A stretch of DNA of 32,295 nucleotides from an uncultured Candidatus Saccharibacteria bacterium (GTDB lineage Bacteria > Patescibacteriota > Minisyncoccia > Minisyncoccales > PWPS01). How positions within the stretch are numbered: position 1 is the first letter of the stretch; the number at the start of each line of letters is the position of its first letter. Below are positions 216 through 32,295 of this stretch, in pieces. The notes below the pieces were generated by a model. It searched no databases, was not told the origin of the DNA, and was given only the letters and a program-made list of their open reading frames with translations. The stretch spans positions 1-32,295 of the forward strand of contig CAZKZM010000068.1 in the NCBI GenBank assembly GCA_964557305.1, given 5' to 3'. The position numbers and the translations under genes were made by a program.

Positions 216-818
216 ATGATTTACGATATTACACAAGAAGAAGTAGATAGAATTTTAAATGAAAAGGGAGACGTTAGAGGAGTTGTTTTTAAAACGGACT
301 ACTTGTTTGTTTTGAATAGATTTGGAGAAGAAGGAGTTAAAAAAGTAGAAGAAGAGATGAAGAGGATGGGGTGTCCGTTTGATTATGAAAAACAAGCGAT
401 TAATATGAGTTTTTATCCTATCGGGATGAGAGTTATCTCGCTTATCGCGATAAGTAATGTTTTTAATTTTGGTAAAGAAGAGGTTGTTGAGATGGGGAGG
501 ACTGCTCCAAAATTTTCAATGATAGTAAAGTTTTTTATAGGATACTTTCTTTCCATTGAAAGTGTTTTTGAGAAAGCAGGGAGTATGTGGGAGAAACACT
601 ACACTGCGGGTTATCTTGAATCAGCAGAAATTAATGAAAAAGAACAGTATGTGATAATAAGGGTTCACGAAACCAATCTTCACCCTATTTTTTGTGATTA
701 TCTTTGCGGGTACTTCTCCTCAATTGTTAAAATGGCAACAGGAAAAGATATTCAAGCAGAAGAAAAAAAGTGCACTCACAAAGGAGATGATTATCATGAA
801 ATTATTTTAAAATGGTAG
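216..818 (+). CDS. V4R/DUF2378-like small-ligand-binding protein
   Basis: 200-aa ORF. The C-terminal pattern FCDYLCGYFSSIVKMATGKDIQAEEKKCTHKGDDYH fits the V4R signature C-x4-G...G...E-x2-C-x3-G. The stop overlaps the start of the next ORF (ATGGTAG). Confidence 0.5.
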   Translation: MIYDITQEEVDRILNEKGDVRGVVFKTDYLFVLNRFGEEGVKKVEEEMKRMGCPFDYEKQAINMSFYPIGMRVISLIAISNVFNFGKEEVVEMGRTAPKFSMIVKFFIGYFLSIESVFEKAGSMWEKHYTAGYLESAEINEKEQYVIIRVHETNLHPIFCDYLCGYFSSIVKMATGKDIQAEEKKCTHKGDDYHEIILKW

Positions 819-1372
819 ATGAAAAACAAAAAATAGAAACTCTTTTGCAGGATATGCAGTCACTTGAAGGATACATAAAGGATCTTTTTTCTTTTACACC
901 TACTCCTCTTTGTTTTGTAAGTCCGATAGGAGTTATTTTAGAAGTTAATCCTGCTTTTTCAAAGATTGTGAAATGCGAAGAAAACGAACCAATTGGTGAC
1001 AACCTATCTATTTTTGTTGATGAAAATTATCTGAAAGGTTTTTTAGAAAGAGCTATTAATGGAGAAGTAATTAACGGAGAAGAAACAGTCATTAAAAATA
1101 AAAAAGAAGAAGAGGTTCCGGTTCTTATCTTCGCAAAAGCAAGAAAAACTGAAGATCAAGAGATGGTAAACGGAGTTTTTATCTCTTTTTTTGACTTAAC
1201 AGAGATAAAAAAGAAAGAAGAAGAGGCCGAAAAAAGCAAAAAGAAACTTGAAGAAAAAGTAGAAGAGATGGAAAAATTTAACAAACTTGTTGTTGGAAGA
1301 GAGATAAAAATGACGGAACTCAAAGAAAGAATAAGAGAACTTGAAGAAAAAATTGGAAAGATGAGGCAGTAA
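812..1372 (+). CDS. PAS-domain protein with C-terminal coiled-coil GRE-motif tail and no output domain
   Basis: 186 aa. PAS-like core (PLCFVSPIGVILEVNPAFSKIVKCEENEPIG...GVFISFFDLTEIKKKEEE). The tail is EKFNKLVVGREIKMTELKERIRELEEKI. It is translationally coupled to 216-818. Confidence 0.75.
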   Translation: MVDEKQKIETLLQDMQSLEGYIKDLFSFTPTPLCFVSPIGVILEVNPAFSKIVKCEENEPIGDNLSIFVDENYLKGFLERAINGEVINGEETVIKNKKEEEVPVLIFAKARKTEDQEMVNGVFISFFDLTEIKKKEEEAEKSKKKLEEKVEEMEKFNKLVVGREIKMTELKERIRELEEKIGKMRQ

Positions 1373-6574: not shown

Positions 6575-7567
6575 CTATTTTTCTTTGTATCTTTCTATCT
6601 CTTCTTTTAGATTTCTAATCTCTTCTTTTAACTCTATCATTCTGTTTTCTCTTCCCATCGTTAGGCGGTGGAACTTTTCAAGCTCAGTCACTCTGTTTTG
6701 CAACTCTTTTGTCCTTTCTTGAATCTTTCCCTCCAATCCTTTATTTAACTCTTCAAGTTCTTTTGTTCTTTCTTGGACTTTTATTTCAAGGGATTTTTTT
6801 GTTTCTTGAAGTTCAGATTCTGACTTTTTAAGAACTTTGTTCTGCTCTTTAACACGAGTATAGTTGCTTTTAAGATCTCCCGCCAACTTGTTTAAGGTTT
6901 TTGCTAAGGTTCCTATCTCATCTTTTGTTGGAACTTCAATCCGATGATCAAGATCTCCCTTTCCCATAATCTCAGCACCATCAGACACCTTCTTTAAAGG
7001 ATTAAGAACAATAATTTTTATAATCCAAAAAGAAGCGAAGATGTCCCCAAAAAGAAGTAGTGCTCCAAGAATCCATATTAGTTTAATCTGGACATCTAAA
7101 AACTCTTGATACTTTTTGTCAGAAAGATAAAACTTTACCTCTCCTAATCTTCTTGGTTCTTGGTCAATTGGTTTGTAGATAACAGTGGAAGTAAAAACAT
7201 CACCGCACTTAGTGCAATTGGAGATGTCTTCTCTTTTTTCTTCATCTACTGTGTCAGAAACATAATCAGCAACAATTTTATCTTTGTGATAAATTTCTAT
7301 TGCCAGTATCTGATCAGAATCTTGCCTTCCGACATAATTAACAGAAAGCTGAAGTGCTGGATAGTTGTATGAAAGAAGATCTTCAATGCAAAAATCAGAA
7401 AGCGCAGCTGCCATTGAGTTTCCGTATGTTTCTACTTGACTTTGGATTATGTCTCCAGTTTGACTGATCTGAAGATATAAAGCAATGACAAGAAAAAATA
7501 AAACTTCTATTCCAACCGCTCCAAGCAGTTTCACCTTCAATGAAAAAGGCTTTTTTAATGGTTTCAT
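6575..7567 (-). CDS. Membrane sensor: TM, extracytoplasmic domain, TM, HAMP, then coiled-coil GRE-motif tail with no output domain
   Basis: 330 aa. HAMP segment NPLKKVSDGAEIMGKGDLDHRIEVPTKDEIGTLAKTLNKLAGDL. Duplicated V/I-QERTKEL heptads are followed by LEKFHRLTMGRENRMIELKEEIRNLKEEI at the C-terminus. Confidence 0.8.
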   Translation of the reverse strand: MKPLKKPFSLKVKLLGAVGIEVLFFLVIALYLQISQTGDIIQSQVETYGNSMAAALSDFCIEDLLSYNYPALQLSVNYVGRQDSDQILAIEIYHKDKIVADYVSDTVDEEKREDISNCTKCGDVFTSTVIYKPIDQEPRRLGEVKFYLSDKKYQEFLDVQIKLIWILGALLLFGDIFASFWIIKIIVLNPLKKVSDGAEIMGKGDLDHRIEVPTKDEIGTLAKTLNKLAGDLKSNYTRVKEQNKVLKKSESELQETKKSLEIKVQERTKELEELNKGLEGKIQERTKELQNRVTELEKFHRLTMGRENRMIELKEEIRNLKEEIERYKEK

Positions 7568-7579
7568 TTTTCTTTTTTA

Positions 7580-14536: not shown

Positions 14537-14564
14537 ATAAAAAATCAAAAGTAAAAACTGATAA

Positions 14565-14928: not shown

Positions 14929-14959
14929 CCATTTTTACACCCCTGGGGTGTAAAAATGG
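14929..14959. repeat. Palindromic repeat, copy 1 (CCATTTTTACACCCC-T-GGGGTGTAAAAATGG)
   Basis: Perfect palindrome centred on nt 14944. It ends 5 nt from the topA stop codon. Further copies are at 17327-17361 and 27818-27852. Confidence 0.9.
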
Positions 14960-14963
14960 GGGG

Positions 14964-17048
14964 TTATTTTTCTTGTTTTGGGTTTTTATTGGAGATGAAT
15001 TTGCAGTCGGGATAGCGAGAGCATCCGTAAAAAATATTTCCTTTTTTTGCTCTTCTTTTTACAACATCTCCTTCTCCGCACTCTGGACACTTCATATCAA
15101 TATCATCATCTTTGATTGACTTTATATTTTTACACTCGGGATAGTTTTCGCATCCGTAAAATTTTCCAAAACGGCTCTGCTTTATCTTCATCTTTCCTTG
15201 ACACTTGTCACAAATTACTTCTTCTTCAGATTCTTTCTCTTTTTCTTCTTCAGTAATAAGTGGTTTTGAGTTTTTACAATCAGGAAAGTTTTTACACGCC
15301 ATAAACTTTCCATACCTCCCCATTTTTATAACCATTTCCCCGCCACATTTTTCGCATTTTTCGTTTGTTTTTTCTTCTTGCATAATATCTTCTTTTTTAA
15401 GTTCTTTTTCTTTTACTTCTAATTGTTTTGCAAAATCTTTGTAAAAGTTAGCAATAATTTTTTTCCACTCTTTTTTTCCTTCAGCAACTTCGTCCAATCC
15501 TTTTTCCATCTCAGATGTGAACTTTCGATCAACAACAAAAGGAAAGTGTTTTGATAAAAGATCGTTAACAATCTTTCCAATCTCGGTTGGTTTCAGGTTT
15601 CTTTTTTCTATTTTCTCAAGATAATTTCTGTAAAAAAGAGTTGATAAAGTTGGAGCGTAAGTAGAAGGTCTTCCGATTCCGTTTTTTTCAAGCTCTTTAA
15701 TTAAAGTTGCTTCTGTGAACCTTGCTGGTGGCTTTGTAAAGTGTTGTTCAGTTAGTATCTCTTTTAAGGATAACTTTTCTTTTTCTTTTACTTCCGGAAG
15801 TTCGTTTTCTTGAAACTTAACAGGATAAACTTTTGTAAATCCACTGTGTTTTAAAACCGAACCAGAGCTTGAAAGAAGATATTTGTCTTTATTTTTTGCA
15901 TCTATGTCAACTGTAGTGCTGTAAAAAACAGCTTCACTCATAAGAGAAGCGGTAAATCTTCTCCAGATAAGGTCGTATAATTTTTTTTCTTCTTCTTTTA
16001 ATCCTTTAACGTTTTCAACTGTTTTTTCAGGATAGGCTGGTCTTACTGCTTCGTGAGCTTCTTGTGTTTTTCCCTTGCTTTTAAAAGAGGTTCCCCTATA
16101 GTAATCTTTTCCAAAAGTTTCAGTTATATATTTTTTCCCAGCAGTTACTGCTTGTGAAGAGAGGTGAACGGAGTCGGTACGGTGATAAGTAATAAGTCCT
16201 TTTTCATACAAAGATTGAGCAACACTCATTGTAAAGCGAGAAGGAAATCTTAATCTTTTAAACGCTTCTTGTTGCATTGTGCTGGTGGTAAAAGGAGGAG
16301 AAGGGTTTCTCTTCTTTTCTTTTTTACTTACTGAACTAACAATAAAAGAAGCATTTTTCAGATCTTCTTCTATCTCTCTTGCTTGTTTTTCGTTTTTTAT
16401 ATCAAGGCGAGCTATTTTTTTACCGCCAACTTCTTTTATTCCGGCGGTTAAGCTTCCTTTTTCAGCGTCAAGAACAGCATCAACGCTCCAGTACTCCTCA
16501 GCATTAAATTTTTCTATCTCTTCTTCTCTGTCACTTACTATTTTAAGAGCAACGGACTGAACCCTTCCCGCCGAAAGTCCGCGAGCCACTTTTTTCCAAA
16601 GAAATGGTGATAATTTATATCCAACAACTCGGTCAAGAACTCTCCGTGCTTGCTGGGCGTTGACTAAATCTACATCTATTTTTCTTGGATTTTTTATTGC
16701 TTCTTCAACAGCACTTTTTGTTATCTCATTAAAAGAAACTCTTTTATAATCTTTTAAATCTAAAATAAAAGCAAGATGAAAAGAGATCGCCTCTCCTTCG
16801 CGATCAGGATCAGTGCTGAGATAAACTATATCAGCTTTTTTTGCAGCTTCTTTCAGTAGTTTAATGTTTTTCCTTGCTCTTGTTGGGATTACATACTGTG
16901 GCTCAAAATCATTCTCAACATCAACTCCCAACTTGCTTTTTGGAAGATCACGAACATGCCCTCCAGAAGCAAGGACTTTGTAATCTTTCCCCAGAAACTT
17001 TTCCAAGGTTTTCGTTTTAGTTGGACTTTCTACTAATACTAAATACAT
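14964..17048 (-). CDS. topA: DNA topoisomerase I
   Basis: TOPRIM N-terminus (LVESPTKTKTLEKFLG), active-site Tyr region GLITYHRTDS, and three C-terminal C4 zinc ribbons. Confidence 0.97.
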   Translation of the reverse strand: MYLVLVESPTKTKTLEKFLGKDYKVLASGGHVRDLPKSKLGVDVENDFEPQYVIPTRARKNIKLLKEAAKKADIVYLSTDPDREGEAISFHLAFILDLKDYKRVSFNEITKSAVEEAIKNPRKIDVDLVNAQQARRVLDRVVGYKLSPFLWKKVARGLSAGRVQSVALKIVSDREEEIEKFNAEEYWSVDAVLDAEKGSLTAGIKEVGGKKIARLDIKNEKQAREIEEDLKNASFIVSSVSKKEKKRNPSPPFTTSTMQQEAFKRLRFPSRFTMSVAQSLYEKGLITYHRTDSVHLSSQAVTAGKKYITETFGKDYYRGTSFKSKGKTQEAHEAVRPAYPEKTVENVKGLKEEEKKLYDLIWRRFTASLMSEAVFYSTTVDIDAKNKDKYLLSSSGSVLKHSGFTKVYPVKFQENELPEVKEKEKLSLKEILTEQHFTKPPARFTEATLIKELEKNGIGRPSTYAPTLSTLFYRNYLEKIEKRNLKPTEIGKIVNDLLSKHFPFVVDRKFTSEMEKGLDEVAEGKKEWKKIIANFYKDFAKQLEVKEKELKKEDIMQEEKTNEKCEKCGGEMVIKMGRYGKFMACKNFPDCKNSKPLITEEEKEKESEEEVICDKCQGKMKIKQSRFGKFYGCENYPECKNIKSIKDDDIDMKCPECGEGDVVKRRAKKGNIFYGCSRYPDCKFISNKNPKQEK

Positions 17049-17093: not shown

Positions 17094-17151
17094 CAAAATC
17101 AAAAGTCAAAAATCAAAATTGACAATTAACATGTGACATTTGACTTTTGAC
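17094..17151. repeat. TGAC-rich repeat array
   Basis: The sequence is caaaatcaaaagtcaaaaatcaaaattgacaattaacatgtgacatttgacttttgac. Confidence 0.8.
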
Positions 17152-17152
17152 T

Positions 17153-17276
17153 GTCATTCCCGCGCAGGCGGGAATCCAGTTTGTGATTTTAAACATTTGA
17201 ATTTGTAATTTATTTGTTATTTGTAATTTAGAATTTGTGATTTTATCCATGGGGTTCCCGCCTCCGCGGGAATGAC
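17153..17276. repeat. MITE-like element with perfect 12-bp terminal inverted repeats (GTCATTCCCGCG / CGCGGGAATGAC)
   Basis: Each end forms its own hairpin (attcccgc-gcag-gcgggaat and ttcccgc-ctcc-gcgggaa). They flank an AT-rich core of tttgt(g/a)attt units. A homologous copy is at 18310-18439. Confidence 0.8.
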
Positions 17277-17326: not shown

Positions 17327-17361
17327 CCCCATTTTTACACCCCTGGGGTGTAAAAATGGGG
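17327..17361. repeat. Palindromic repeat, copy 2 (CCCCATTTTTACACCCC-T-GGGGTGTAAAAATGGGG)
   Basis: Perfect 17-bp arms around nt 17344. Confidence 0.9.
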
Positions 17362-17368
17362 GGTTTGG

Positions 17369-18225: not shown

Positions 18226-18309
18226 AGTATATAAACTCAAAAGTCAAAATTCAAAAGTCAAAACTGCAACTAAAAACTATAAAACCTTGTCATTCCTGCC
18301 TTTCCCAAT

Positions 18310-18439
18310 GTCATTCCCGCGGAAGCGGGAATCCAGTTTGTGATTTTGGTATTGTGATTTGTGATTTATTTAGGATTTAGAATTTAGTGCTTAAGATTTA
18401 ATTCACGGGATTACTTCGGGCTACCGCTCTCGCAATGAC
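18310..18439. repeat. MITE-like element, second copy (degenerate right end)
   Basis: It begins gtcattcccgcggaagcgggaatccagtttgtgatttt, shared with 17153 onward, and ends ...ctcgcaatgac. It is preceded by the half-unit gtcattcctgcc (18289-18300) and flanked by TGAC arrays at 18237-18264 and 18447-18476. Confidence 0.75.
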
Positions 18440-19085: not shown

Positions 19086-19120
19086 TTTGACAATTGACCT
19101 TTGACATTTGACTTGTGACA
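19086..19120. repeat. TGAC-rich repeat array
   Basis: The sequence is tttgacaattgacctttgacatttgacttgtgaca, immediately after the lepB stop. Confidence 0.8.
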
Positions 19121-23536: not shown

Positions 23537-26500
23537 ATGATTTCAAAAATTGAAAAAAGAAACGGAGAAGTTGTAGATTTTGATGTTCAAAAAATTGAAA
23601 GCGCAGCATATAAAGCGCTTACTTTTACGAAAAAGGGGGACAAAGATGAAGCGAGAGTTATTTCTGATAAAGTTTTAGAGGTTCTTCTTCAAAGATTTAG
23701 CAGGGAAGAAGTCCCTACCGTTGAAGATATTCAAAACATCGTTGAAGAGGTCTTAATAATGGAAGGATTTACAGACACTGCTCGTAGTTATATTCTTTAC
23801 CGGGAAAAAAGAAGAGAAGTGAGGGATGCGATGACACAGTTAGAAGATTCAAGTGAAATTATTGAAAAATACATAGATGAGATTGACTGGGAAGTGAAAG
23901 AAAACGCGAATATGACATACTCTCTTCAAGGACTAAATCAACACGCAACCTCTCATATTTCAAAAAAATACTGGCTTAACAAGATTTATCCTTACGAGAT
24001 AAGAGAAGCAGCAAAAAATCAGGATTTTCATATTCACGACCTAAATCTGCTCGCTACTTACTGTTGCGGGTGGGATCTGCAAGATCTTCTTCTCCGAGGA
24101 TTTGGAGGAGTTCCATCAAAAATAGAATCAAAACCACCAAAACATTTTCGTCCAGCGCTGGGACAGATTGTAAACTTTTTCTTTACTCTTCAAGGAGAAA
24201 GTGCAGGTGCACAGGCGATGAGCAACTTTGACACTTTCCTTGCTCCTTTCATCAGATACGATAATTTGGACTACAAACAAGTAAAACAGTCCTTACAAGA
24301 GTTTTTGTTCAACTGCATGGTCCCAACCCGCGTAGGATTTCAATGTCTCTCGGAAGATACTGAGATTTTAACTAAAGATGGGTGGAAAAAACACAACGAA
24401 GTGAAACAAGGAGATGTTATAAAAACATTTAATACTGAAGAAAAAATAATTCAAGAAAAACAAGTAAAAAAAGTATTTTCAAAAGAATATGAAGGAAAGA
24501 TGTACTCTGTTTCAAACAGAATTCAAGATCAGTTAATCTCTCCTCATCACAGAATGGTGAGAAAGAAGTTTAACAGTGAAAGATATGTACTTGAAGAAGT
24601 TGAAGAAGTGTTAAAACTTAAAACACCACAAACGATTCCGATAGCTGCTGACAATAAAAACAAAGCAATTGATATTACCAACGAAGAGATAAAGTTGGTT
24701 GCTTGGATTGTCTCTGAAGGAAGTATGGAGTCAAAAGTTAACTGGAGAAGAATAGTAATTTATCAATCAGAAAAGAAAAACAAAGAAAAGTACGAAGAAA
24801 TTCTTGCTCTTTTAGAAATTCTTGGAATTAAATACACAACACAAGAAGGATCAAAATCCCTTGGCGATGTTGTGATGCAGATAAGATTTAACTCTGAAGA
24901 AACACAAAAGATATTAGATCTTTTTGACACGAAAGATAGTGTGAAAAAAATCCCATCAAGGTTCTTAGAGATGAGTCAGAAACAAAGCAGGGTTTTCTTG
25001 GAAACATACATCAAAGGAGATGGTCACGAGGGATCAAAGATTACCGTTTCTGATAAAGAAACTTTGAGAGATCTTCAAAGAATAATAGTTAACTCTGGAT
25101 ATGGATTTACAACTTCTAAAAGAAAGTCATCGGGTGTAGGGAAGAAGATGCTTTATATTATTAGAGTTATTCGTCATCAAGAAACACACATCACTAAAAT
25201 AAAAGAAGTTGATTACAAAGGATTTATATGGTCTGTTAATACTGACAACGAAACAGTTATTGCAAAAAGAAAAGGAAAGGTTTTCATAACAGGGAACACG
25301 CCTTTTCTAAATGTTTCGTTGGATGTTAAGATTCCTGAGTTTTTGAGAAACCAACCGATTATTATTGGTGGTGAAGCGAAGAGAGAAACATATGGAGAGT
25401 TTCAGAAAGAAGTTGATATTTTCAACAAAGCTTTTTACGAGTGCTTAATGGAAGGAGATTCAAAAGGAAGAGTTTTCACTTTTCCAATTCCAACAATTTC
25501 TATTGCCAAAGATTTTGATTGGGACAACAAAGCTCTTGATCCGATGTGGGAAGCAACCGCAAAGTACGGAATAAATTATTTTTCAAACTTTATTCAGTCC
25601 GATATGAACCCCGAGGATTTTAGAAGTATGTGTCCACTTGACAGAAACGAAAAGGTCTTAATCAGATCAAAAAGAGGAAGAGGATTAGAGTATTCTAGTA
25701 TAGGATTTATCTGTGAAGGACGCGCTAAAGAAAACGAATATGAAGTTTATAGTGATGGAAAGTTTATAAAAGGAAGATTCAACAAGTTCCCTAATCAGAA
25801 GATGATGTTGGTGGTTTTGAAAAATGGACACAAGATTAAGATGAGTGAAAATCACCTGAACTATGTGATGAAAGATTCTAAAAGTGCCATTGAAACATTA
25901 AAAGGAAAGGATCTTAAAGAAGGATTTTATCTTCCCTACTCTTTAAATGTTTACGAAGGAGAAGGAGGAAACAAGGATTTAGGGTATTTTGTTGGTGCTT
26001 TTGCCGGTGATGGTTCCTTTGATGGAGATGGAAGCGTTGTATTTTCATTAGAGCAAGAAAGAAAAAAAGAGATAATATCAAAAATAATAAAAATATCAGA
26101 AAAATATTTTGGAGCTCATTACTCAACCAAAAAAGACCCTAAAACGAAATTATTTACATTAAAAATTCATTCACGAGCGGCTGTTGGCTTGTGTAAAGAT
26201 TTTATTGCCAATAAAAAAAGAGAAAAACATTACAAAGCAAGGATTTTTGGAACAAGTGTAGAGTTTAGAAAAGGAGTGCTGAAGGGTCACTATGAGACCG
26301 ATGGCGGAAATAAAAACAGAACATATACTTCATCTAAGAGAATGGTTGAAAGTATAAATATGCTTAATGCTACATTGGGAAAAACGACAAGCATATACAA
26401 AGACGACAGAGAGGGAAGATTGGGAAGTGAGCCAAATTATGCAGTTAGAGCGTATAGTTTTGCCAATAAAAAATATGGAGATATCTGGTTCAAGAAGAAA

Positions 26501-27493
26501 GAAAAAGTATGGGTTCAGATAAAGTTAATAAAAAAGATCAATAAAATTAGTGTGGCATACTGTTTTGAAGTAGAAAATGGAGAGCCCGTTTTTACAGTTG
26601 GAACAACAGGAATCCTTACGCACAACTGCCGACTTAGGTTGGATAACAAGGAGTTGATAAAGAGAGGGGGAGGGCTTTTTGGCTCACAACCACTTACTGG
26701 TTCAATTGGTGTTTGTACAATTAACTTGCCACGAATAGGATATTTGTCAAAAACAAAAGATGAGTTTTATAGTAGATTAGGAGCGGTGATGGATCTTGCA
26801 AAAGAAAGCTTAGAGATAAAAAGAAAGGCCGTAGATAACTTTATTGAAAAAGGACTATATCCTTATTCCAAACACTATCTTAATTCTGTGAAAAAGATGC
26901 GTGGCTCTTATTTTGGAAATCACTTTTCAACAATCGGTCTTATCGGAATGAACGAATCGCTTTTAAATTTTATGGGAGAAGGGACTGGTTCTGAAGAAGG
27001 AAGAAAGTTTGCAGTAGAAATTCTTGACTTTATGCGTGACCGACTTGTTGAGTATCAAGAAAAAACAGGAAATCTATACAACTTAGAAGCAACTCCGGGA
27101 GAAGGGTGTTCTTACCGCCAAGCGAGTATAGACCGAGGAAGATACCCAGATATTATAACAGCAGGAACAAAAGAAAATCCGTACTACACAAACTCTATTC
27201 ACCTTCCGGTTGGATACACTGATGATCCGTTTGAAGCACTTGATCTTCAAGATGAACTGCAACAAAAATTTACTGGAGGAACGGTGTTTCACTTGTTCTT
27301 GGGAGAGAGAATGGCTACTGCTGAAAGCGCAAAAGGTCTTGTAAAAAAGGTATTAAACAACTATCATTTACCATACATAACAATAACACCTACTTTTTCT
27401 GTTTGTCCTAACTGTGGATACTTAAAAGGAGAGCAGTTCTACTGCCCTAATTGCAAAATAAAAGGTCCAAAGAAGATTATAAAAAATATTTAA
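23537..27493 (+). CDS. nrdD: Anaerobic (class III) ribonucleoside-triphosphate reductase with an ATP-cone and two inteins, lacking the glycyl-radical loop
   Basis: ATP-cone at the N-terminus. Extein motifs are GFQ/TPFLNVSLD, RSM/CRLRLD, NLEATPGEG, GGTVFHLFLGE and LPYITITPTFSVCPNCGYLKGEQFYCPNC. The ORF stops 12 codons after the second CxxC, before any RxxGY loop. Confidence 0.93.
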   Translation: MISKIEKRNGEVVDFDVQKIESAAYKALTFTKKGDKDEARVISDKVLEVLLQRFSREEVPTVEDIQNIVEEVLIMEGFTDTARSYILYREKRREVRDAMTQLEDSSEIIEKYIDEIDWEVKENANMTYSLQGLNQHATSHISKKYWLNKIYPYEIREAAKNQDFHIHDLNLLATYCCGWDLQDLLLRGFGGVPSKIESKPPKHFRPALGQIVNFFFTLQGESAGAQAMSNFDTFLAPFIRYDNLDYKQVKQSLQEFLFNCMVPTRVGFQCLSEDTEILTKDGWKKHNEVKQGDVIKTFNTEEKIIQEKQVKKVFSKEYEGKMYSVSNRIQDQLISPHHRMVRKKFNSERYVLEEVEEVLKLKTPQTIPIAADNKNKAIDITNEEIKLVAWIVSEGSMESKVNWRRIVIYQSEKKNKEKYEEILALLEILGIKYTTQEGSKSLGDVVMQIRFNSEETQKILDLFDTKDSVKKIPSRFLEMSQKQSRVFLETYIKGDGHEGSKITVSDKETLRDLQRIIVNSGYGFTTSKRKSSGVGKKMLYIIRVIRHQETHITKIKEVDYKGFIWSVNTDNETVIAKRKGKVFITGNTPFLNVSLDVKIPEFLRNQPIIIGGEAKRETYGEFQKEVDIFNKAFYECLMEGDSKGRVFTFPIPTISIAKDFDWDNKALDPMWEATAKYGINYFSNFIQSDMNPEDFRSMCPLDRNEKVLIRSKRGRGLEYSSIGFICEGRAKENEYEVYSDGKFIKGRFNKFPNQKMMLVVLKNGHKIKMSENHLNYVMKDSKSAIETLKGKDLKEGFYLPYSLNVYEGEGGNKDLGYFVGAFAGDGSFDGDGSVVFSLEQERKKEIISKIIKISEKYFGAHYSTKKDPKTKLFTLKIHSRAAVGLCKDFIANKKREKHYKARIFGTSVEFRKGVLKGHYETDGGNKNRTYTSSKRMVESINMLNATLGKTTSIYKDDREGRLGSEPNYAVRAYSFANKKYGDIWFKKKEKVWVQIKLIKKINKISVAYCFEVENGEPVFTVGTTGILTHNCRLRLDNKELIKRGGGLFGSQPLTGSIGVCTINLPRIGYLSKTKDEFYSRLGAVMDLAKESLEIKRKAVDNFIEKGLYPYSKHYLNSVKKMRGSYFGNHFSTIGLIGMNESLLNFMGEGTGSEEGRKFAVEILDFMRDRLVEYQEKTGNLYNLEATPGEGCSYRQASIDRGRYPDIITAGTKENPYYTNSIHLPVGYTDDPFEALDLQDELQQKFTGGTVFHLFLGERMATAESAKGLVKKVLNNYHLPYITITPTFSVCPNCGYLKGEQFYCPNCKIKGPKKIIKNI
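24344..25297 (+). mobile_element. Intein 1 (318 aa) with a LAGLIDADG homing-endonuclease domain
   Basis: It starts CLSEDTEILTKDG. Block B is LISPHHRM. LAGLIDADG-like motifs are KLVAWIVSEGSM and FLETYIKGDGHEG. It ends VFITGN with Thr at +1, and splits the conserved GFQ-TPF extein motif. Confidence 0.85.
25631..26626 (+). mobile_element. Intein 2 (332 aa) with a LAGLIDADG homing-endonuclease domain
   Basis: It starts CPLDRNEKVLIRS. Block B is MSENHLN. LAGLIDADG motifs are LGYFVGAFAGDGSF and VLKGHYETDGG. It ends GILTHN with Cys at +1 (CRLRLD). Confidence 0.9.
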
Positions 27494-27503
27494 CAAAAAA
27501 AAT

Positions 27504-27812
27504 ATGAGTAAAAATATATTTTCTACAAAAAAACAAGCAGTTGAGGCAAGAAAGTGTTTTGATTGTGGGTGTGACATAAAGATTGAAGATAAAGACATTA
27601 AAAATGGAGTTCTCTTAGAGTATGAAGATAACGACGAGCAACTTTTTGCGATGAAGTGTGACGATTGTTACAAAAAAAACGAAGGAATCTCTAATTACAA
27701 AAAGTGCGAAGTTTACTCAAGAATAGTAGGATATCTCCGTCCAGTTCAAAACTATAATCCAGGCAAAAAACAAGAGTACGAAGAAAGAAAGGAATACACT
27801 GCAAAGGTGTAA
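27504..27812 (+). CDS. Stand-alone NrdD C-terminal module: Cys4 ribbon plus glycyl-radical loop
   Basis: 102 aa with CFDCG...CDDC, then EVYSRIVGYLRPVQNYNPGKKQEYEERKEY, the class III RNR glycyl-radical signature. It starts 10 nt after the nrdD stop, in a different frame. Confidence 0.85.
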   Translation: MSKNIFSTKKQAVEARKCFDCGCDIKIEDKDIKNGVLLEYEDNDEQLFAMKCDDCYKKNEGISNYKKCEVYSRIVGYLRPVQNYNPGKKQEYEERKEYTAKV

Positions 27813-27817
27813 ATACA

Positions 27818-27852
27818 CCCCATTTTTACACCCCAGGGGTGTAAAAATGGGG
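27818..27852. repeat. Palindromic repeat, copy 3 (CCCCATTTTTACACCCC-A-GGGGTGTAAAAATGGGG)
   Basis: Perfect 17-bp arms around nt 27835, starting 6 nt after the stop at 27810-27812. Confidence 0.9.
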
Positions 27853-28192: not shown

Positions 28193-28891
28193 ATGAAAAT
28201 TGGTGGATTACAAAAACTAACGCTTATTGACTATCCGGGGCAAGTTGCTTGCACTGTTTTTCTTGCTGGTTGTAATTTTCGTTGTCCGTGGTGTTACTCG
28301 GCAGAGCTTGTTTTGCCCGAAAAAATTGAAAATCAAGCAGAAGTAGAAGAAAAAGAATTTTTCAGATTTTTAGAAAGAAGAAAAAACACTCTTGATGGCG
28401 TTGTTATTTGTGGAGGAGAAGCAACAACAAACGCTTCGCTTCCTGAGTTTATAAGAAAGATAAAAGAAAAAGGATTTAAAGTAAAACTTGATACCAACGG
28501 CTCTAATCCACAAATGTTAATTCATCTTCTTGAAGAAAAGTTACTGGATTATATTGCGATGGATGTTAAAAATAGCTTTGATAAGTATAGTCAGACGGTG
28601 GGAGTTGATTGTGATGTTGAAAAGATAAAAAAAAGCATTGATGTTATAAAAAACTCAGAAGTTGATTACGAGTTCAGAACAACAGTGGTTCCAGGAATTC
28701 ATGAAGAAGAAGACATTGAAAAGATAGGAGAAGCATTAAAAGGAGCAGAAAAGTATTTTTTACAAAATTTTCTTCCTGAAAAAACAATTAACGGAGGATT
28801 CATAGAAAAAACACCATTTTCCAAAGAGAAGCTTGAAAAGTTAAAAGAAAAAGCAGCTCCTTTTGTGAAAAAATGTGAGACAAGAGGATAA
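28193..28891 (+). CDS. nrdG: Anaerobic ribonucleotide reductase activating protein (radical SAM)
   Basis: CNFRCPWC cluster motif near the N-terminus, GGEAT, and a length and layout typical of the NrdG2 type. Confidence 0.9.
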   Translation: MKIGGLQKLTLIDYPGQVACTVFLAGCNFRCPWCYSAELVLPEKIENQAEVEEKEFFRFLERRKNTLDGVVICGGEATTNASLPEFIRKIKEKGFKVKLDTNGSNPQMLIHLLEEKLLDYIAMDVKNSFDKYSQTVGVDCDVEKIKKSIDVIKNSEVDYEFRTTVVPGIHEEEDIEKIGEALKGAEKYFLQNFLPEKTINGGFIEKTPFSKEKLEKLKEKAAPFVKKCETRG

Positions 28892-28909: not shown

Positions 28910-28940
28910 GTGCCGACTTTTCAGTCGGCACTTTTGTTTT
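28910..28940 (+). terminator. Rho-independent terminator after nrdG
   Basis: Stem gtgccgac / gtcggcac with loop ttttca, followed by ttttgtttt. Confidence 0.8.
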
Positions 28941-28995
28941 GACTTTTATTTTATTTGTTTTATTATTAAGTAATATCAATATAATTTTTTTATAT

Positions 28996-29664
28996 ATGAA
29001 GATTTTATTTGTTTCTTACTCAAGAACAGGAAATACTCAAAAAACAACGGAGAAAATAAAAAAAGAGTTAAAAGAACGAGGACACGAAGTAGTTACAGAA
29101 AAAATTAAATTAAAAAAAGAGCTTGAATCAAGGTGGTTAGTTCTTTTTGATATAAAAGTGACACTTAGTTACTTTTTGGGGCTTGCCTTGAGAAAAGACA
29201 TTTTACCCAGAAGAGAAATTGAGCCAGTTTCTTTTCCAAACATATCACAGTTTGACAGAGTTTGTATAACAACTCCCAAGTGGGGCAGTGTTCCTCCACA
29301 GATATGTAAATATATTGATATTGTTGAAGGATTGGAAGGAAAAAAAGTTGCTGTTTTTTCCTCTTACTACTGTCCTCCCTATAAATACATTGAGTTGAAG
29401 GCGATTTTTGGACCGTTAAAGAAAATGATAAGCAAAAAACAAGGAGAAGTGACTGTAATGATGGGTGCGACTACCGATTTTCTTGAAAGAGGAATTAAAT
29501 CGTTTAAAGCAGTAATATGGATTCTTAATCTGGTCAGGTTTGGAAAGCCATTTCCAAAAGATTGGCGAGACAGATCACCATACTTTATATCAGAAAAGTT
29601 TAAACCAGTAGCTCCTTACAAGGAAGAAGCGATCAAGTTGTTTTGTGATAAAATTGAAAATTAA
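28996..29664 (+). CDS. Flavodoxin-like fold protein
   Basis: MKILFVSYSRTGNTQKTTEKIKKEL is an FMN-loop-like N-terminus, and ITTPKWGSVPP is a second loop. ATG at 28996 is preferred over the upstream alternative start at 28939. Confidence 0.65.
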   Translation: MKILFVSYSRTGNTQKTTEKIKKELKERGHEVVTEKIKLKKELESRWLVLFDIKVTLSYFLGLALRKDILPRREIEPVSFPNISQFDRVCITTPKWGSVPPQICKYIDIVEGLEGKKVAVFSSYYCPPYKYIELKAIFGPLKKMISKKQGEVTVMMGATTDFLERGIKSFKAVIWILNLVRFGKPFPKDWRDRSPYFISEKFKPVAPYKEEAIKLFCDKIEN

Positions 29665-29676
29665 AAAAAATAAAAG

Positions 29677-31026
29677 ATGAAAATTTTAGTTGCTTACTAC
29701 TCCCGTACAAAAGGAACAGAAAAATTAGCAGATGTTTTGATTAAAAAAATTAGAGATTCAGGACATTCTGTTGATGTTGAAAAAATAAAACCACAAAAAG
29801 AACACAGTTGGTTTTTTTGGTTTTTTATTAGAATCTTTAAAGGAAGTTGCAAGATTAAACCCTTGAAAATTAAAACAGCAGAAGATTATGATCTGGTTTT
29901 AGTTGGAAGTCCTAACTGGACGCGAGTTTCCTTGCCAGTGGGAGGATATATCAAAGAAGTGAAAGGAATAAGATACAGAAATGTTGCGCTTTTTTCTACT
30001 ACTTTTGCTCCTCCTGCTCTTGAGTGGTATATTCTTTCAGCATACTTGCTTGATCTGAGTTTTGCGAAGATGGTTGAGAGAAAACACGGGAGAGTGGTTG
30101 ATTATCTTATTCTTTCAAGTTTTTTTAAAAAATGGAGTTTTGAATCTGATTATGGAGAGAATATGATCAGTGATTTTTGTAAAAAAATTACTTCTCCGAT
30201 AACTTCTTTTAAAAAATACTTTTTAAGACAAAAAGAAGTTGACAATCTTCGCTTTTTAGCGGTCTTAACCTCATTTTTCTTTTTTTCAAGTATTTTTGCA
30301 GTAGCTTTTTTGAAAGTTATTAATATTGACATTTCTTGGGAAGATTACCTTTGGATCGGGATTGTTCTTTTCTTAACTTTTATTCTTTTAACCCTTGTTC
30401 GGGACAACAAAAGATTTTTCTTTTTAGCAAAATATATTCCAAGCGTTTCGTTTGTTTTTCTTTGGACAATGCTTGTTTCTCACTTTGCATTAGATTTAGG
30501 GACGGGGCGTTTAATGATATTAGGATATATTTTTATTTTCGTTCTTTTTTCTTCTTTTCGTGACGAAAAAGTGGTTGCTTTTTCAGGAGCGTTTACTCTT
30601 TTGTCGTATGTTTTTTTGTTTTATTTTTCGCTAGAAAAACAAGTTTTTAATTTGTTTTTAGATATGTCTTTGATATTTGCCAGTTGTGTTCTCTTTATTA
30701 TCTTTACCAACACTTTTCGTGAGTATTACCTGACTTTATTAAACTCTCAAGATGAAGTTGAAAAATCACGAAAAGGATTAGAAGAAAAAGTTAAAATAAA
30801 AACAAAAGAGTTGAAAGAGCTGAACGAAAACCTAGAAAAAGAAGTTGAAAAAAGAACTGAAAAAATAAAAGAGCAGAGCACTGACTTAGAAAAGAAAGTA
30901 AACCACTTAGAAAAGTTCAACAAACTAACGATTGGAAGAGAGAACCGAATGAAAGAATTAAAAGAAGAGATAGAAACACTAAAAAAAGAAAAACAAGAGT
31001 TGGAAGAAAAGTTAAATGAAAAATAA
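29677..31026 (+). CDS. Fusion protein: flavodoxin-like domain, about 6 TM helices, then coiled-coil GRE-motif tail
   Basis: The N-terminus MKILVAYYSRTKGTEKLADVLIKKI...LVGSPNWTRVSLP is paralogous to 28996-29664. The middle 190 aa or so are hydrophobic. The tail is LEEKVKIKTKELKELNENLEKEVEKRTEKI...LEKFNKLTIGRENRMKELKEEIETLKKE. Confidence 0.75.
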   Translation: MKILVAYYSRTKGTEKLADVLIKKIRDSGHSVDVEKIKPQKEHSWFFWFFIRIFKGSCKIKPLKIKTAEDYDLVLVGSPNWTRVSLPVGGYIKEVKGIRYRNVALFSTTFAPPALEWYILSAYLLDLSFAKMVERKHGRVVDYLILSSFFKKWSFESDYGENMISDFCKKITSPITSFKKYFLRQKEVDNLRFLAVLTSFFFFSSIFAVAFLKVINIDISWEDYLWIGIVLFLTFILLTLVRDNKRFFFLAKYIPSVSFVFLWTMLVSHFALDLGTGRLMILGYIFIFVLFSSFRDEKVVAFSGAFTLLSYVFLFYFSLEKQVFNLFLDMSLIFASCVLFIIFTNTFREYYLTLLNSQDEVEKSRKGLEEKVKIKTKELKELNENLEKEVEKRTEKIKEQSTDLEKKVNHLEKFNKLTIGRENRMKELKEEIETLKKEKQELEEKLNEK

Positions 31027-32295
31027 AGAAAAAATAACCCCCTCAAAAACTCTTTTCTTTTTTTGTCTTTCTTTTATTCTTGGAGTATTTTTTGCGCCGA
31101 TTAGCTTCCTAATCGGCGTTGTTTTTTCTCTTTTAATTTTTTTCTTTCTTTCAAAAAAACATCTGATTACTGTTTTTTGTCTTCTTTTTTTTATTGTTGG
31201 ATTTTTTCTTTTTCACTTTGCAACATATAACTTAGAAGTAATAAAAAATAGTTCTTTTGTGGGAAAAGTTACAGAAACCTACTCCACAGGAAAAGAAACA
31301 CAAGTATTGACGATTAAAAACAGTCAGGGAAAAGCAGTTGTTTACACATATGATTATCCGAAGCACTGTTGTGGTGAAACAGTTTTGATAAAAGGAGAAG
31401 AGAGCGTTTTTAATGATAAAAAATATCTAAATTATCTAAACAAAGAAAAAATTATATCTGTTTTTCAATATCCCACCATAGAAAAAATAAAAGAAAAAGA
31501 AAGATCTTTTCAGTGTTTTCTTTTGTCTCAGAAAGAAAAACTTAAAAAAAACATAGAAAGATCACTTCCCGCTCCACACCGATTTTTATTAGAAGCAATG
31601 ATTCTTGGAGAAAGAAGGTCTTTTACTGACAGCTTTAATGAAAAGTTAAGTATCTCTGGAACTCGTCACATAACAGCAATTTCTGGAATGCACATTATTA
31701 TAATATCCAGTGTGCTGTTTTTTATTATTTTAATGTTAGGAGTTAAAAAAAGAATATCAGTTTTTTTAACACTTGCAGTAATTACGATTTTTATTATTTT
31801 TGTTGGAGCTCCAGCTTCTGCGATAAGAGCAGGGGTTATGGGAGGCGTTGTTCTGTTATCAACGATTGTTGGTCGTAAAGCAAGTCCAGTTCGGCTCGTT
31901 GCTTTTGCTGGAGCAGTGATGCTTGCTTTTAACCCTCTTCTTCTTCATTACGATTTAGGATTTCAGTTATCTTTTTTGGCAGTAGTAGGAATTACTTCTC
32001 TTTACGGTCCGATCAAGAAAAAAGAAGTTGCTTGTTCTTCTTTTCTTAGAAAACACGACAAAATAGCAGATATTTTAGCAGTAACGATCGGGGCGCAGAT
32101 ATTTGTTTTTCCTTTAATTCTTTACAACTTTGGACACATCTCTCTCTTCTCCTTTTTTGCAAATATTTTAATTGTTCCACTTCTTCCTTTTGTTATGATT
32201 CTCGGATTTTTAACAGCCCTGACAGGATGGATTATTTTTTCAATCCCTGCATTTATATTTCTTTCTTTTATAATCTTTATCATCAACCTAACTTA
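31016..32295 (+). CDS. comEC: ComEC/Rec2-family DNA internalisation channel protein (3' end outside window)
   Basis: An open frame runs from ATG 31016 to the window edge, so it is absent from the ORF track for lack of a stop. It is polytopic with the Competence-domain motif ISGTRHITAISGMHIIII. It overlaps the previous gene by 11 nt. Confidence 0.8.
   Translation, partial: MKNKEKITPSKTLFFFCLSFILGVFFAPISFLIGVVFSLLIFFFLSKKHLITVFCLLFFIVGFFLFHFATYNLEVIKNSSFVGKVTETYSTGKETQVLTIKNSQGKAVVYTYDYPKHCCGETVLIKGEESVFNDKKYLNYLNKEKIISVFQYPTIEKIKEKERSFQCFLLSQKEKLKKNIERSLPAPHRFLLEAMILGERRSFTDSFNEKLSISGTRHITAISGMHIIIISSVLFFIILMLGVKKRISVFLTLAVITIFIIFVGAPASAIRAGVMGGVVLLSTIVGRKASPVRLVAFAGAVMLAFNPLLLHYDLGFQLSFLAVVGITSLYGPIKKKEVACSSFLRKHDKIADILAVTIGAQIFVFPLILYNFGHISLFSFFANILIVPLLPFVMILGFLTALTGWIIFSIPAFIFLSFIIFIINLT

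What the first reader, a model, noticed from the sequence alone, without database searches (positions are those of the whole stretch)
28996..31026. Tandem flavodoxin-like paralogs after nrdG, the second fused to a 6-TM domain and the GRE tail
In E. coli, reduced flavodoxin is the established electron donor for activation of NrdG. A flavodoxin-like gene immediately after nrdG is therefore a plausible dedicated reductant. Its paralog next door has the same N-terminal fold but continues into a polytopic membrane domain and the shared coiled-coil tail. That arrangement reads as a redox or flavin-state sensor. Its last 11 nt overlap the comEC start.
Basis: partly seen in the sequence, partly recalled or inferred. 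Interest (0 to 1): 0.65.

Follow-up and report, generated by a model that had tools for sequence, protein, structure and literature searches.

The report
Flavodoxin-like membrane sensor gene pair
Two flavodoxin-like genes sit next to the anaerobic ribonucleotide reductase genes of a Patescibacteria (CPR) bacterium, but relatives show that the larger one belongs to an undescribed family of kinase-less membrane sensors that normally sits beside a histidine kinase, so the link to ribonucleotide reductase looks like a local accident of gene order.

Summary
ProtA (28996-29664, 222 aa) and ProtB (29677-31026, 449 aa) are paralogs: BLASTP gives 29% identity and E 7e-15, and profile-profile comparison gives E 9e-51. 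Both have a flavodoxin-like fold, with the FMN flavoprotein 3EDO as best PDB match. ProtB continues into six TM helices and a coiled-coil "GRE" tail that two other window proteins share. Its last 11 nt overlap comEC.

I surveyed 31 distinct loci carrying a ProtB-type gene. nrdD-nrdG lies upstream only in the window's population and two close relatives, and one of those relatives lacks ProtA. A strong terminator hairpin and a promoter-like site separate nrdG from ProtA. Both are also present in the relative that lacks ProtA, there directly upstream of ProtB.

In 14 loci the conserved neighbours lie downstream instead: a V4R-like ~200-aa protein, then a PAS histidine kinase or a PAS+GRE-tail protein. 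In other genomes the flavodoxin-like+6TM module is fused directly to PAS-HisKA-HATPase. This fits ProtB being a kinase-less membrane sensor of a family seen almost only in Patescibacteria, probably flavin-binding. ProtA is a co-transcribed stand-alone relative of its input domain. A dedicated NrdG reductant is not excluded, but comparative evidence does not support it. FMN binding is untested.

The parts
28910..28940 (+). Intrinsic-terminator-like hairpin (GTGCCGACT-TTTC-AGTCGGCAC) plus T-run, 19 nt after the nrdG stop codon
   Evidence: Terminator scan. RNA fold -17.4 kcal/mol, z = -4.3, 0 of 200 shuffles fold as well. The same hairpin is present in L004 and partly in L009.
28939..28966 (+). 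Promoter-like site, TTGACT-16 nt-TATTAT (10 of 12 consensus positions), upstream of ProtA
   Evidence: TTGACT...TATTAT is conserved in L004, where it directly precedes the ProtB homolog, and in L009. This is a consensus match only; function was not shown.
28996..29664 (+). ProtA: 222-aa stand-alone flavodoxin-like protein. P-loop SYSRTGNTQ (aa 7-15), TTPKWGS loop (aa 92-98), aromatic 90s loop FSSYYCPPYKY (aa 121-131), hydrophobic insert aa 46-65, extra C-terminal elements
29677..30201 (+). ProtB residues 1-175: cytoplasmic flavodoxin-like input domain. P-loop variant YYSRTKGTE, invariant GSPNW, and a family-specific insertion (E-W-Y-I-L-S-A-Y-L-L-D) in the 90s loop
30208..30720 (+). ProtB residues 178-348: six predicted TM helices (N-in/C-in topology is my reading of the loop charges). 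No Pfam or NCBIfam family
   Evidence: AF2 helices, hydropathy, no family hit. TM+tail proteins without the flavodoxin-like domain exist (P0094, P0095).
30721..31026 (+). ProtB residues 349-449: coiled-coil tail continuous with TM6. It holds two S-helix-like units (KVKIKTKELKEL, aa 371-382; EVEKRTEKIKEQ, aa 389-400) and the terminal motif LEKFNKLTIGRENRMKELKEEI (aa 411-432, nt 30907-30972)
31016..32295 (+). comEC (runs off the window). Its start overlaps the ProtB stop by 11 nt; the same overlap is seen in L001, L004 and L009
28193..28891 (+). nrdG (class III RNR activase), upstream neighbour separated from ProtA by the terminator-like hairpin
   Evidence: TIGR02495 E 7e-65.
216..818 (+). V4R-like 200-aa protein. 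Its homologs lie immediately downstream of ProtB-type genes in 14 other loci
812..1372 (+). PAS + GRE-tail protein. Its PAS domain is homologous to the N-terminal PAS of the PAS histidine kinases that follow ProtB/V4R-like genes elsewhere
6575..7567 (-). TM-HAMP + GRE-tail protein, the third carrier of the tail in this window

Best explanation
ProtB belongs to an uncharacterised family of kinase-less membrane sensors, found almost only in Patescibacteria. It has three parts: a cytoplasmic flavodoxin-like input domain that probably binds FMN (inferred), six TM helices, and a long dimeric coiled coil. The coiled coil consists of two S-helix-like ERT/ART units followed by a terminal 'ELEKFxxLxVGRExxMxELKxEI' helix.

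The tail appears to act as a transmitter. It would pass the input state to separately encoded cytoplasmic partners, namely V4R-like ~200-aa proteins and PAS proteins, and finally to a PAS histidine kinase and response regulator (inferred from gene order and gene fusions).

ProtA is a stand-alone member of a rare sister family of the same flavodoxin-like domain. It is co-transcribed with ProtB and comEC from its own promoter (inferred from consensus elements). It most likely works with ProtB's input domain, as a flavin/redox partner or as a competing or heterodimerising subunit (inferred), rather than as the NrdG reductant.

The position after nrdG reflects insertion of the pair into the conserved nrdG...comEC slot in one small clade.
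For: 1. Family and architecture. About 93 full-length homologs of 430-460 aa; those named by a source are Patescibacteria, except one contig labelled Pacearchaeota (L024). All share the same three-part architecture. P0076, P0080, P0084-P0088, L029 and L030 carry (PAS-)HisKA-HATPase instead of the tail.

2. Fusion evidence. P0076 residues 345-715 are 55% identical (E 8e-128) to the PAS-HK encoded five genes downstream of the ProtB homolog in L006. The two loci share flanks: TsaE and 5'-3' exonuclease upstream; response regulator, Fpg and HolA downstream.

3. Gene order. In 14 of 31 loci the gene immediately downstream is V4R-like, followed by a PAS-HK or a PAS+GRE protein. nrdDG is adjacent in only 3 loci (the window's population and two close relatives), and L004 among them has no ProtA.

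4. Transcription signals. A terminator hairpin and a promoter-like site lie between nrdG and ProtA. Both are present in L004, directly upstream of ProtB.

5. Older synteny. comEC lies downstream of nrdG in distant Patescibacteria (L075, L084) with unrelated genes between them.

6. Fold and cofactor loops. AF2 plus Foldseek point to FMN flavoproteins and flavodoxins. hhalign against Flavodoxin_4-type proteins gives E 6e-37. The invariant or near-invariant residues cluster in the P-loop, the GSPNW loop and the 90s loop.

7. Recurrent pairing. A different solo paralog (171 aa, much closer to the N-domain) sits directly upstream of the ProtB homolog in L006 with no nrdDG nearby. The solo+sensor pairing therefore arose at least twice.

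8. The tail as a shared module. It occurs on dCache-HAMP, TM-HAMP, PAS, 7TM and 6TM-only proteins, with at least 420 hits; every source name that gives a taxon is CPR. Its ERT/ART units match the S-helix signature described in PMC1592074.
Against: - No cofactor, interaction or phosphotransfer was tested. FMN binding rests on sequence and fold only.
- In the window's clade the ProtB P-loop has G12 replaced by K (SRTKGT), a variant found in about 10% of the family.
- The window's own sequences fall below Pfam gathering scores.
- The partner of the tail is unknown, and the V4R-like protein matches no known family.
- In the window the V4R-like/PAS-GRE pair lies 28 kb away, and no histidine kinase is visible in the 32 kb.
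- Terminator and promoter are consensus predictions, and read-through from nrdG is possible.
- Three short Flavodoxin_4-type genes in other Patescibacteria lie 1-5 kb upstream of nrdR-nrdD-nrdG (L056, L075, L084). This is a weak hint that flavodoxin-like genes and nrdDG do associate in this phylum.
Confidence: 0.58

Rival explanations
1. ProtA is a dedicated flavodoxin that delivers the electron NrdG needs to cleave S-adenosylmethionine and generate the glycyl radical. ProtB senses the redox or flavin state of that system.
For: - ProtA lies 104 nt downstream of nrdG on the same strand, in the window's population and in L009.
- It has a canonical S-x-T-G-N-T phosphate loop, and its W96-G97 aligns with W60-G61 of D. 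vulgaris flavodoxin.
- It has a flavodoxin fold.
- Short Flavodoxin_4-type genes lie 1-5 kb upstream of nrdR-nrdD-nrdG in L056, L075 and L084.
- Established knowledge, not tested here: reduced flavodoxin activates E. coli NrdG.
Against: - A terminator hairpin and a promoter-like site lie between nrdG and ProtA.
- L004 keeps nrdDG, the spacer, ProtB and comEC but has no ProtA.
- ProtB-type genes in 28 of 31 loci are not near nrdDG.
- ProtA-type proteins in Desulfobacteraceae and other non-CPR bacteria have variable neighbourhoods with no nrdDG.
It also has a 20-residue hydrophobic insert.
- An exhaustive HMMER scan found only 85 relatives among 1.84 billion representatives. The nearest are stand-alone proteins of mostly about 140-250 aa and ProtB-type sensors, not canonical flavodoxins.
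- In L084 the short flavodoxin gene is separated from nrdD by ybeY-ftsA-ftsZ, so inherited synteny explains the proximity as well as function does.
Confidence: 0.15
2. The flavodoxin-like domains have lost flavin chemistry. They would serve as a structural, oligomerisation or other-ligand module, and sensing would be done by the 6TM domain, for example of membrane state. ProtA would then be a non-redox accessory subunit.
For: - The window's sequences are sub-threshold for every Pfam and NCBIfam flavodoxin model, and only the first ~40 residues match.
- G12K in the ProtB P-loop.
- A strongly conserved family-specific hydrophobic insertion (EWYILSAYLLD) lies in the 90s loop, and an aromatic insert carries the invariant W48.
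- TM+tail proteins without the N-domain exist (P0094, P0095).
- From general knowledge, not tested here: CPR genomes often lack riboflavin synthesis.
Against: - Conservation is concentrated in exactly the three loops that hold FMN in flavodoxins and in 3EDO. S9 and T14 are near-invariant, G77-P79-W81 are invariant, and T108/T109 are 92% conserved.
- About 90% of family members keep the canonical T/S-G-x-T, and ProtA's loop is canonical.
- The best structural matches are FMN-bound proteins.
Confidence: 0.2
3. In this clade the pair has been recruited to control DNA uptake. ProtB would be translationally coupled to ComEC and would gate or regulate the channel according to redox or nucleotide supply, with nrdDG next door as part of a deoxynucleotide-supply neighbourhood.
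For: - The 11-nt ProtB/comEC overlap is conserved in all three lineages.
- The genes share a strand and, by prediction, a promoter.
- nrdDG and comEC both bear on the supply of DNA precursors (inference).
Against: - ComEC follows ProtB only in these three related lineages.
- nrdG...comEC proximity pre-dates the insertion (L075, L084).
- A terminator-like hairpin lies at 31094-31119, just inside comEC.
- There is no evidence of a physical link.
Confidence: 0.07

Closest known systems
Flavodoxin_4/Flavodoxin_5-type small FMN flavoproteins (PDB 3EDO/2MWM from Lactobacillus acidophilus; 3KLB, 4J8P, 4ICI from Bacteroides)
   Same: Best structural and sequence matches for both proteins. They share the YYSxxGxT phosphate loop and the GSPxW loop. 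hhalign of the ProtB N-domain against Flavodoxin_4-type proteins gives E 6e-37.
   Different: Those are soluble ~150-160-aa proteins of unknown function. ProtB adds an 11-residue conserved insertion in the 90s loop, an aromatic insert after strand 2, six TM helices and a coiled-coil tail. ProtA adds a hydrophobic insert and a ~60-residue C-terminal elaboration.
Electron-carrier flavodoxins (D. vulgaris flavodoxin; E. coli FldA, the reductant of NrdG)
   Same: Same fold. ProtA has the S-x-T-G-N-T loop, and its W-G aligns with W60-G61.
   Different: Only about 20% identity. ProtA is basic rather than strongly acidic, has hydrophobic inserts, and shows no conserved linkage to nrdDG. Electron transfer was not tested.
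S-helix (signaling helix) of sensor kinases, cyclases and HD-GYP proteins (Anantharaman, Balaji and Aravind 2006, PMC1592074)
   Same: The tail is a predicted continuous helix after the last TM helix, with two heptad units carrying the ERT/ART signature. It gives a weak NCBIfam hit to the REC/HD-GYP linker of NF053512.
   Different: As I understand that work, an S-helix normally links two signalling domains (not checked in the paper). Here nothing follows except a conserved terminal helix with the G-R-E...M..ELK motif, which matches no Pfam or NCBIfam family.
Flavin-based signalling sensors (PAS-FAD NifL and Aer; LOV and BLUF proteins)
   Same: Conceptually the same job: a flavin cofactor state is converted into a signalling output. 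This is inference only.
   Different: Those use PAS or BLUF folds. I found no description of a flavodoxin-fold input domain on a membrane sensor in the literature searches I ran.
KefF/KefG (flavodoxin-like ancillary subunits of the KefC/KefB channels) and HemG (membrane-associated long-chain flavodoxin)
   Same: They set a precedent for flavodoxin-fold proteins that regulate or work at membrane proteins (from my own knowledge). Flavodoxin_5, the HemG family, is the top Pfam hit.
   Different: There is no specific sequence relationship, and the Pfam hit is sub-threshold. These have different inserts and no signalling tail.

Membership tests
Flavodoxin-like fold / Pfam flavodoxin families | Three-layer alpha/beta fold with a five-stranded parallel sheet | tested here: met
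   AF2 models (pLDDT 76 and 88) have alternating strand and helix elements. Foldseek to 3EDO gives E 3e-6 and 7e-7 with TMt 0.66 and 0.75, and also hits the D. vulgaris flavodoxins.
Flavodoxin-like fold / Pfam flavodoxin families | Score at or above the Pfam gathering threshold | tested here: not met
   ProtA: Flavodoxin_5 24.0 bits against a cut-off of 27. ProtB: 20.0 against 27. Family member P0076 passes (30.4 against 27; Flavodoxin_3 29.4 against 27.5), so membership holds at family level by profile-profile comparison.
FMN-binding flavodoxins | Phosphate-binding loop T/S-x-T/S-G-x-T after strand 1 | tested here: met
   ProtA has S9-R-T-G-N-T14, aligned to S10-T-T-G-N-T15 of D. vulgaris flavodoxin. 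The ProtB family consensus is SRTGxT. The window's ProtB has SRTKGT (G12K), a variant seen in about 10% of members.
FMN-binding flavodoxins | Aromatic residues flanking the isoalloxazine ring (60s-loop Trp, 90s-loop Tyr) | tested here: inconclusive
   W96-G97 of ProtA and the invariant W81 of ProtB align with W60. The 90s loops are aromatic-rich (YYCPPY; EWY) but remodelled by an insertion. No cofactor was modelled.
FMN-binding flavodoxins | Bound FMN and low-potential redox couples | not testable with these tools
   This needs purified protein, UV-visible spectra and potentiometry.
Dedicated NrdG-reducing flavodoxin | Conserved genomic linkage or co-transcription with nrdDG | tested here: not met
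   Adjacent in only 3 of 31 loci. ProtA is absent from one of those. A terminator and a promoter-like site lie between the genes.
NrdI / RNR-associated flavodoxin (TIGR01754) | Match to the family model above its cut-off | tested here: not met
   TIGR01754 scores 18-19 bits against a cut-off of 163.8, over the N-terminal ~40 residues only. No NrdI model was reported in the listed hits at E <= 1.
Sensor histidine kinase | HisKA (DHp) with phospho-acceptor His, plus HATPase_c | tested here: not met
   Both are absent from the window's ProtB. They are present in the fused family members P0076, P0085, P0088, L029 and L030. The tail is not a degenerate DHp: hhalign probability 0.2%.
S-helix (signaling helix) | ~40-residue parallel coiled coil with a central ERT signature, placed between two signalling domains | tested here: inconclusive
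   The family consensus has ARTxEL and ERTKEL units; the window's ProtB has IKTKEL and KRTEKI. There is no downstream domain. The S-helix profile itself was not available to score against.

The most novel reading that the evidence does not exclude
The GRE tail would be the docking or transmitter element of a modular, non-covalent sensor-to-kinase relay peculiar to Patescibacteria. Many kinase-less sensors carry the same tail: flavodoxin-like-6TM, TM-HAMP, dCache-HAMP, PAS and 7TM proteins. Through it they would converge on V4R-like adaptor proteins and PAS modules that control one or a few histidine kinases. The flavodoxin-like input would make ProtB the first flavodoxin-fold flavin/redox sensor in bacterial signal transduction, with ProtA as its soluble redox partner.
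Probability: 0.25. Interest if true: 0.75.

Novelty: new variant of a known kind. Interest (0 to 1): 0.5.

Why it matters
Signal transduction in CPR/Patescibacteria is barely described. These organisms have very small genomes and few recognisable kinases. This locus exposes three things:
- a widespread but unannotated input domain, a flavodoxin fold on a membrane sensor;
- an unannotated C-terminal transmitter tail shared by many sensor types;
- a recurrent V4R-like/PAS/HK neighbourhood, tied to the sensor by a gene fusion.

If the relay model is right, it would explain how a reduced genome connects many sensors to few kinases. It would also add a new cofactor-binding fold to the list of sensory input domains.

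The case is also a caution. Adjacency to nrdDG invited a neat biochemical story, a dedicated NrdG reductant, that comparative genomics does not support.

Tried and rejected
1. GRE tail as a degenerate DHp helix, with H-E-L-R replaced by G-R-E-L-K. hhalign of 140 tails against 37 DHp regions from the same loci gave probability 0.2%; a reversed-sequence control gave 1.4%. Rejected.

2. Assigning the V4R-like ~200-aa protein to a known family. Pfam V4R is sub-threshold (20 bits against a cut-off of 31, C-terminal 38 residues only). A second member gave no Pfam hit. NCBIfam gave one weak MsvR hit among 21 members. A PDB profile search found nothing. Left as 'V4R-like'.

3. Looking for the tail upstream of an enzymatic domain, or outside CPR. 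A profile search returned at least 420 hits, almost all short or C-terminal; every source name that gives a taxon is CPR. No following domain was seen.

4. Literature searches. I searched for flavodoxin-like sensor kinases, for CPR flavodoxin together with RNR, and for NrdG reductants. Nothing on this family was found. The two RNR reviews I opened did not contain the FldA-NrdG statement, so that point rests on my own knowledge.

5. Neighbourhoods of ProtA-type proteins in Desulfobacteraceae and other non-CPR bacteria. They are variable and uninformative.

6. RNA genes in the window. Rfam and tRNA scans found none.

7. The TTG start at 28939, which would add a hydrophobic 19-residue N-terminus to ProtA. 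Rejected because it overlaps the promoter-like site and no homolog has the extension.
Full report
**What is there**

The window is low-GC (about 33%) DNA of a Patescibacteria/CPR bacterium. The closest named relatives are Paceibacterota/Parcubacteria MAGs. The local gene order on the + strand is:
- ybeY, ftsA, ftsZ;
- nrdD (23537-27493, 1318 aa, with intein insertions);
- a 102-aa ORF carrying the NrdD C-terminal glycyl-radical motif (27504-27812);
- nrdG (28193-28891; TIGR02495 E 7e-65);
- ProtA (28996-29664, 222 aa);
- ProtB (29677-31026, 449 aa);
- comEC (31016 onward; PF03772 E 1.7e-47).

**Are they flavodoxin-like paralogs?**

Yes. BLASTP of ProtA against ProtB residues 1-140 gives 29% identity and E 7e-15. 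A profile of the ProtA family against a profile of the ProtB N-domain family gives probability 100% and E 9e-51 across the whole of ProtA.

Curated models only graze the window's own sequences. Flavodoxin_5 scores 24 and 20 bits against a cut-off of 27, over the first ~40 residues. Three further lines settle the fold:
- The family member P0076 passes the Pfam cut-offs.
- Both families align to Flavodoxin_4-type proteins with E 6e-37 and 4e-32.
- The AlphaFold2 models (mean pLDDT 76 for ProtA, 88 for ProtB) have the FMN-bound flavoprotein 3EDO as best PDB match, followed by D. vulgaris flavodoxins and WrbA.

ProtA carries S9-R-T-G-N-T14, which aligns residue for residue with the FMN phosphate loop of D. 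vulgaris flavodoxin. Its W96-G97 aligns with W60-G61. Across 92 aligned sequences (the window's ProtB plus 91 homologs), the invariant or near-invariant N-domain residues sit in three places:
- the P-loop (Y8, S9, T14; consensus YYSRTGxTE);
- the GSPNW loop (G77, P79 and W81 invariant);
- the 90s loop (F106, T108, T109, P113, E116, W117, Y118, S121).

The window's ProtB has the minority variant SRTKGT. Flavin binding is therefore plausible for both proteins but unproven. The 90s loop contains an 11-residue, strongly conserved, family-specific insertion (EWYILSAYLLD) that is absent from Flavodoxin_4 proteins.

**The rest of ProtB**

The model shows helices at 178-215, 221-243, 245-269, 276-292, 297-317 and 326-448. 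That makes six TM helices, the last continuing without a break into a ~100-residue helix; hydropathy agrees. From the distribution of charged residues in the loops I infer an N-in/C-in topology, so the flavodoxin-like domain and the tail would be on the same (cytoplasmic) side.

The tail has two units with the ERT/ART signature of the S-helix (family consensus ...VxARTxELKEL...VxERTKEL...; signature described in PMC1592074). It then has a terminal motif, ELEKFxxLxVGRExxMxELKxEI, in which G420, R421, E422, M425, L428 and K429 are near-invariant.

The same tail ends two other window proteins: a PAS protein (812-1372) and a TM-HAMP protein (6575-7567, minus strand). Elsewhere it ends dCache-HAMP, 7TM, 7TM-PAS and 6TM-only proteins. 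A profile search found at least 420 carriers, and every source name that gives a taxon is CPR. No domain ever follows the tail. No Pfam or NCBIfam family covers the TM domain or the tail.

**Linkage to nrdDG**

I collected 31 distinct loci with a full-length ProtB-type gene. Four came from exact-protein look-ups and 27 from a scan of one genome per species. I annotated them with HMMs built here.

nrdD, the small NrdD piece and nrdG lie directly upstream in only three of them: the window's own population (L001-L003), L004/L021 (63% identical ProtB) and L009 (64%). L004 has no ProtA; there ProtB follows nrdG directly.

Between nrdG and ProtA lies a 9-bp GC-rich hairpin followed by TTTTGTTTT. Its fold has z = -4.3, and 0 of 200 shuffles fold as well. 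A TTGACT-16-TATTAT promoter-like site follows. Both elements are present in L004, directly in front of ProtB, and partly in L009. The predicted transcription unit is therefore [ProtA]-ProtB-comEC, separate from nrdDG.

comEC also lies downstream of nrdG in distant Patescibacteria (L075, L084), with unrelated genes in between. This suggests the flavodoxin-like genes were inserted into an older nrdG...comEC block in one small clade.

**What ProtB is linked to instead**

In 14 of the 31 loci the gene immediately downstream encodes a ~200-aa protein homologous to window ORF 216-818. I call it V4R-like. The Pfam V4R match is sub-threshold, and the protein has conserved His156, Cys160 and Cys186. 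It is followed by either a ~530-aa PAS-PAS-HisKA-HATPase kinase or a ~195-aa PAS+GRE-tail protein homologous to window ORF 812-1372.

In L007, L029 and L030, and in several database proteins, the flavodoxin-like+6TM module is fused directly to (PAS-)HisKA-HATPase. P0076 residues 345-715 are 55% identical (E 8e-128) to the C-terminal two-thirds of the PAS-HK that lies five genes downstream of the unfused ProtB homolog in L006. The two loci share flanking genes: TsaE and 5'-3' exonuclease upstream; response regulator, Fpg and HolA downstream.

This is a gene-fusion (Rosetta-stone) argument that the ProtB module feeds a two-component kinase. In unfused systems the tail, the V4R-like protein and the first PAS domain would occupy the place of the covalent link. 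The physical mechanism is inference. I tested one specific idea, that the tail is a His-less DHp helix, and rejected it (hhalign probability 0.2%).

**What ProtA is**

An exhaustive HMMER scan of 1.84 billion representative proteins found only 85 relatives at E <= 1e-3 and 20 at E <= 1e-10. The nearest are stand-alone proteins of mostly about 140-250 aa, followed by ProtB-type sensors. Ordinary ~160-aa flavodoxin-like proteins appear only near the threshold.

ProtA-type proteins of 198-248 aa occur in Desulfobacteraceae and other non-CPR bacteria. Their neighbourhoods are variable and contain no nrdDG. It also has a 20-residue hydrophobic insert at residues 46-65, which is modelled with low confidence.

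In L006 a different solo paralog (171 aa, far closer to the N-domain: HMM E 7e-64 against 1e-21 for ProtA) sits directly upstream of the ProtB homolog, with no nrdDG nearby. A stand-alone flavodoxin-like gene immediately upstream of the sensor therefore arose at least twice. That points to a functional pairing of solo protein and sensor rather than of solo protein and NrdG.

- ProtA's cofactor loops look intact.
- Radical-SAM activases need a low-potential donor.
- In three other Patescibacteria loci (L056, L075, L084) a short Flavodoxin_4-type gene lies 1-5 kb upstream of nrdR-nrdD-nrdG.

Two of those loci are close relatives of each other. In L084 the intervening genes are ybeY-ftsA-ftsZ, the same syntenic block as in the window, so shared ancestry of gene order explains the proximity as well as function does. 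I put the dedicated-reductant reading at about 15%.

**Verdict**

The 'NrdG reductant' half is not supported by comparative genomics or by the predicted transcription signals, though only biochemistry can exclude it.

Nothing comparable turned up in the literature searches. Most database entries for the family carry no name; the named ones read 'hypothetical protein', and a few JGI entries read 'flavodoxin' or 'uncharacterized membrane protein'. I rate it a new variant of a known kind (sensor proteins) with moderate interest. Interest would be higher if the non-covalent relay through the shared tail proves real.

Noticed in passing
window 27504-27812 (+), with 23537-27493: NrdD appears to be split. 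The 1318-aa ORF ends just after its C-terminal CPNC...CPNC cysteine motif. The glycyl-radical motif (EVYSRIVGYLRPV) is in a separate 102-aa ORF that has cysteine pairs of its own (CFDCGC...CDDC). The 102-aa gene is conserved in L004 and L009 (E 4e-54 and 3e-55), whereas L084 has a single fused NrdD.
   Followed up: partly
window 23537-27493 (+): The window's NrdD is 1318 aa. The ortholog is 669 aa in L004 and 1000 aa in L009. The alignment breaks into three blocks, and Pfam reports weak or faint LAGLIDADG_3 and Intein_splicing hits. This suggests two intein insertions here, one in L009 and none in L004.
   Followed up: partly
window 14929-14964, 17327-17364, 27815-27852: A 36-38-nt perfect palindrome (CCCCATTTTTACACCCC(T/A)GGGGTGTAAAAATGGGG) recurs at three sites that fall outside the main genes I identified. 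One lies right after the small NrdD ORF. It looks like a REP-like element or a bidirectional terminator. There is no Rfam match.
   Followed up: partly
window 14541-14609, 17095-17190, 18233-18347, 19087-19119: Other repeated elements outside the main genes: tandem TTGAC(A/C)-type units (TTGACATTTGACTTTTGAC) and a hairpin-forming TGTCATTCCCGCG(C/G)A(G/A)GCGGGAATCC motif, upstream of or between several genes.
   Followed up: no
window 31094-31119 (+): An 11-bp GC-rich hairpin followed by a T-run (terminator-like) lies about 80 nt inside the comEC reading frame, shortly after the ProtB stop. It could be an attenuator, or chance within a TM-helix coding segment.
   Followed up: no
window 6575-8617 (-): The TM-HAMP+GRE-tail sensor (6575-7567) lies directly downstream of a phosphonate-binding-type ABC substrate-binding protein homolog (7580-8617; PF12974 E 1e-44). 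This suggests a binding-protein-dependent sensor that uses the same tail output.
   Followed up: no
window 216-1372 (+); L006, L010, L025, L027, L036: The V4R-like ~200-aa gene is nearly always followed directly (overlapping or within a few tens of nt) by a PAS gene whose product ends in either the GRE tail or HisKA-HATPase. Some loci hold two or three V4R-like paralogs in a row. The V4R-like family has conserved His156, Cys160 and Cys186 and no Pfam, NCBIfam or PDB family.
   Followed up: partly
window 3596-4126 and 11302-11730 (+): Two paralogous small secreted or anchored proteins share a C-terminal CxxC...YVPEIQI...YQG region (DNA repeat D14). They look thioredoxin- or glutaredoxin-like.
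   Followed up: no
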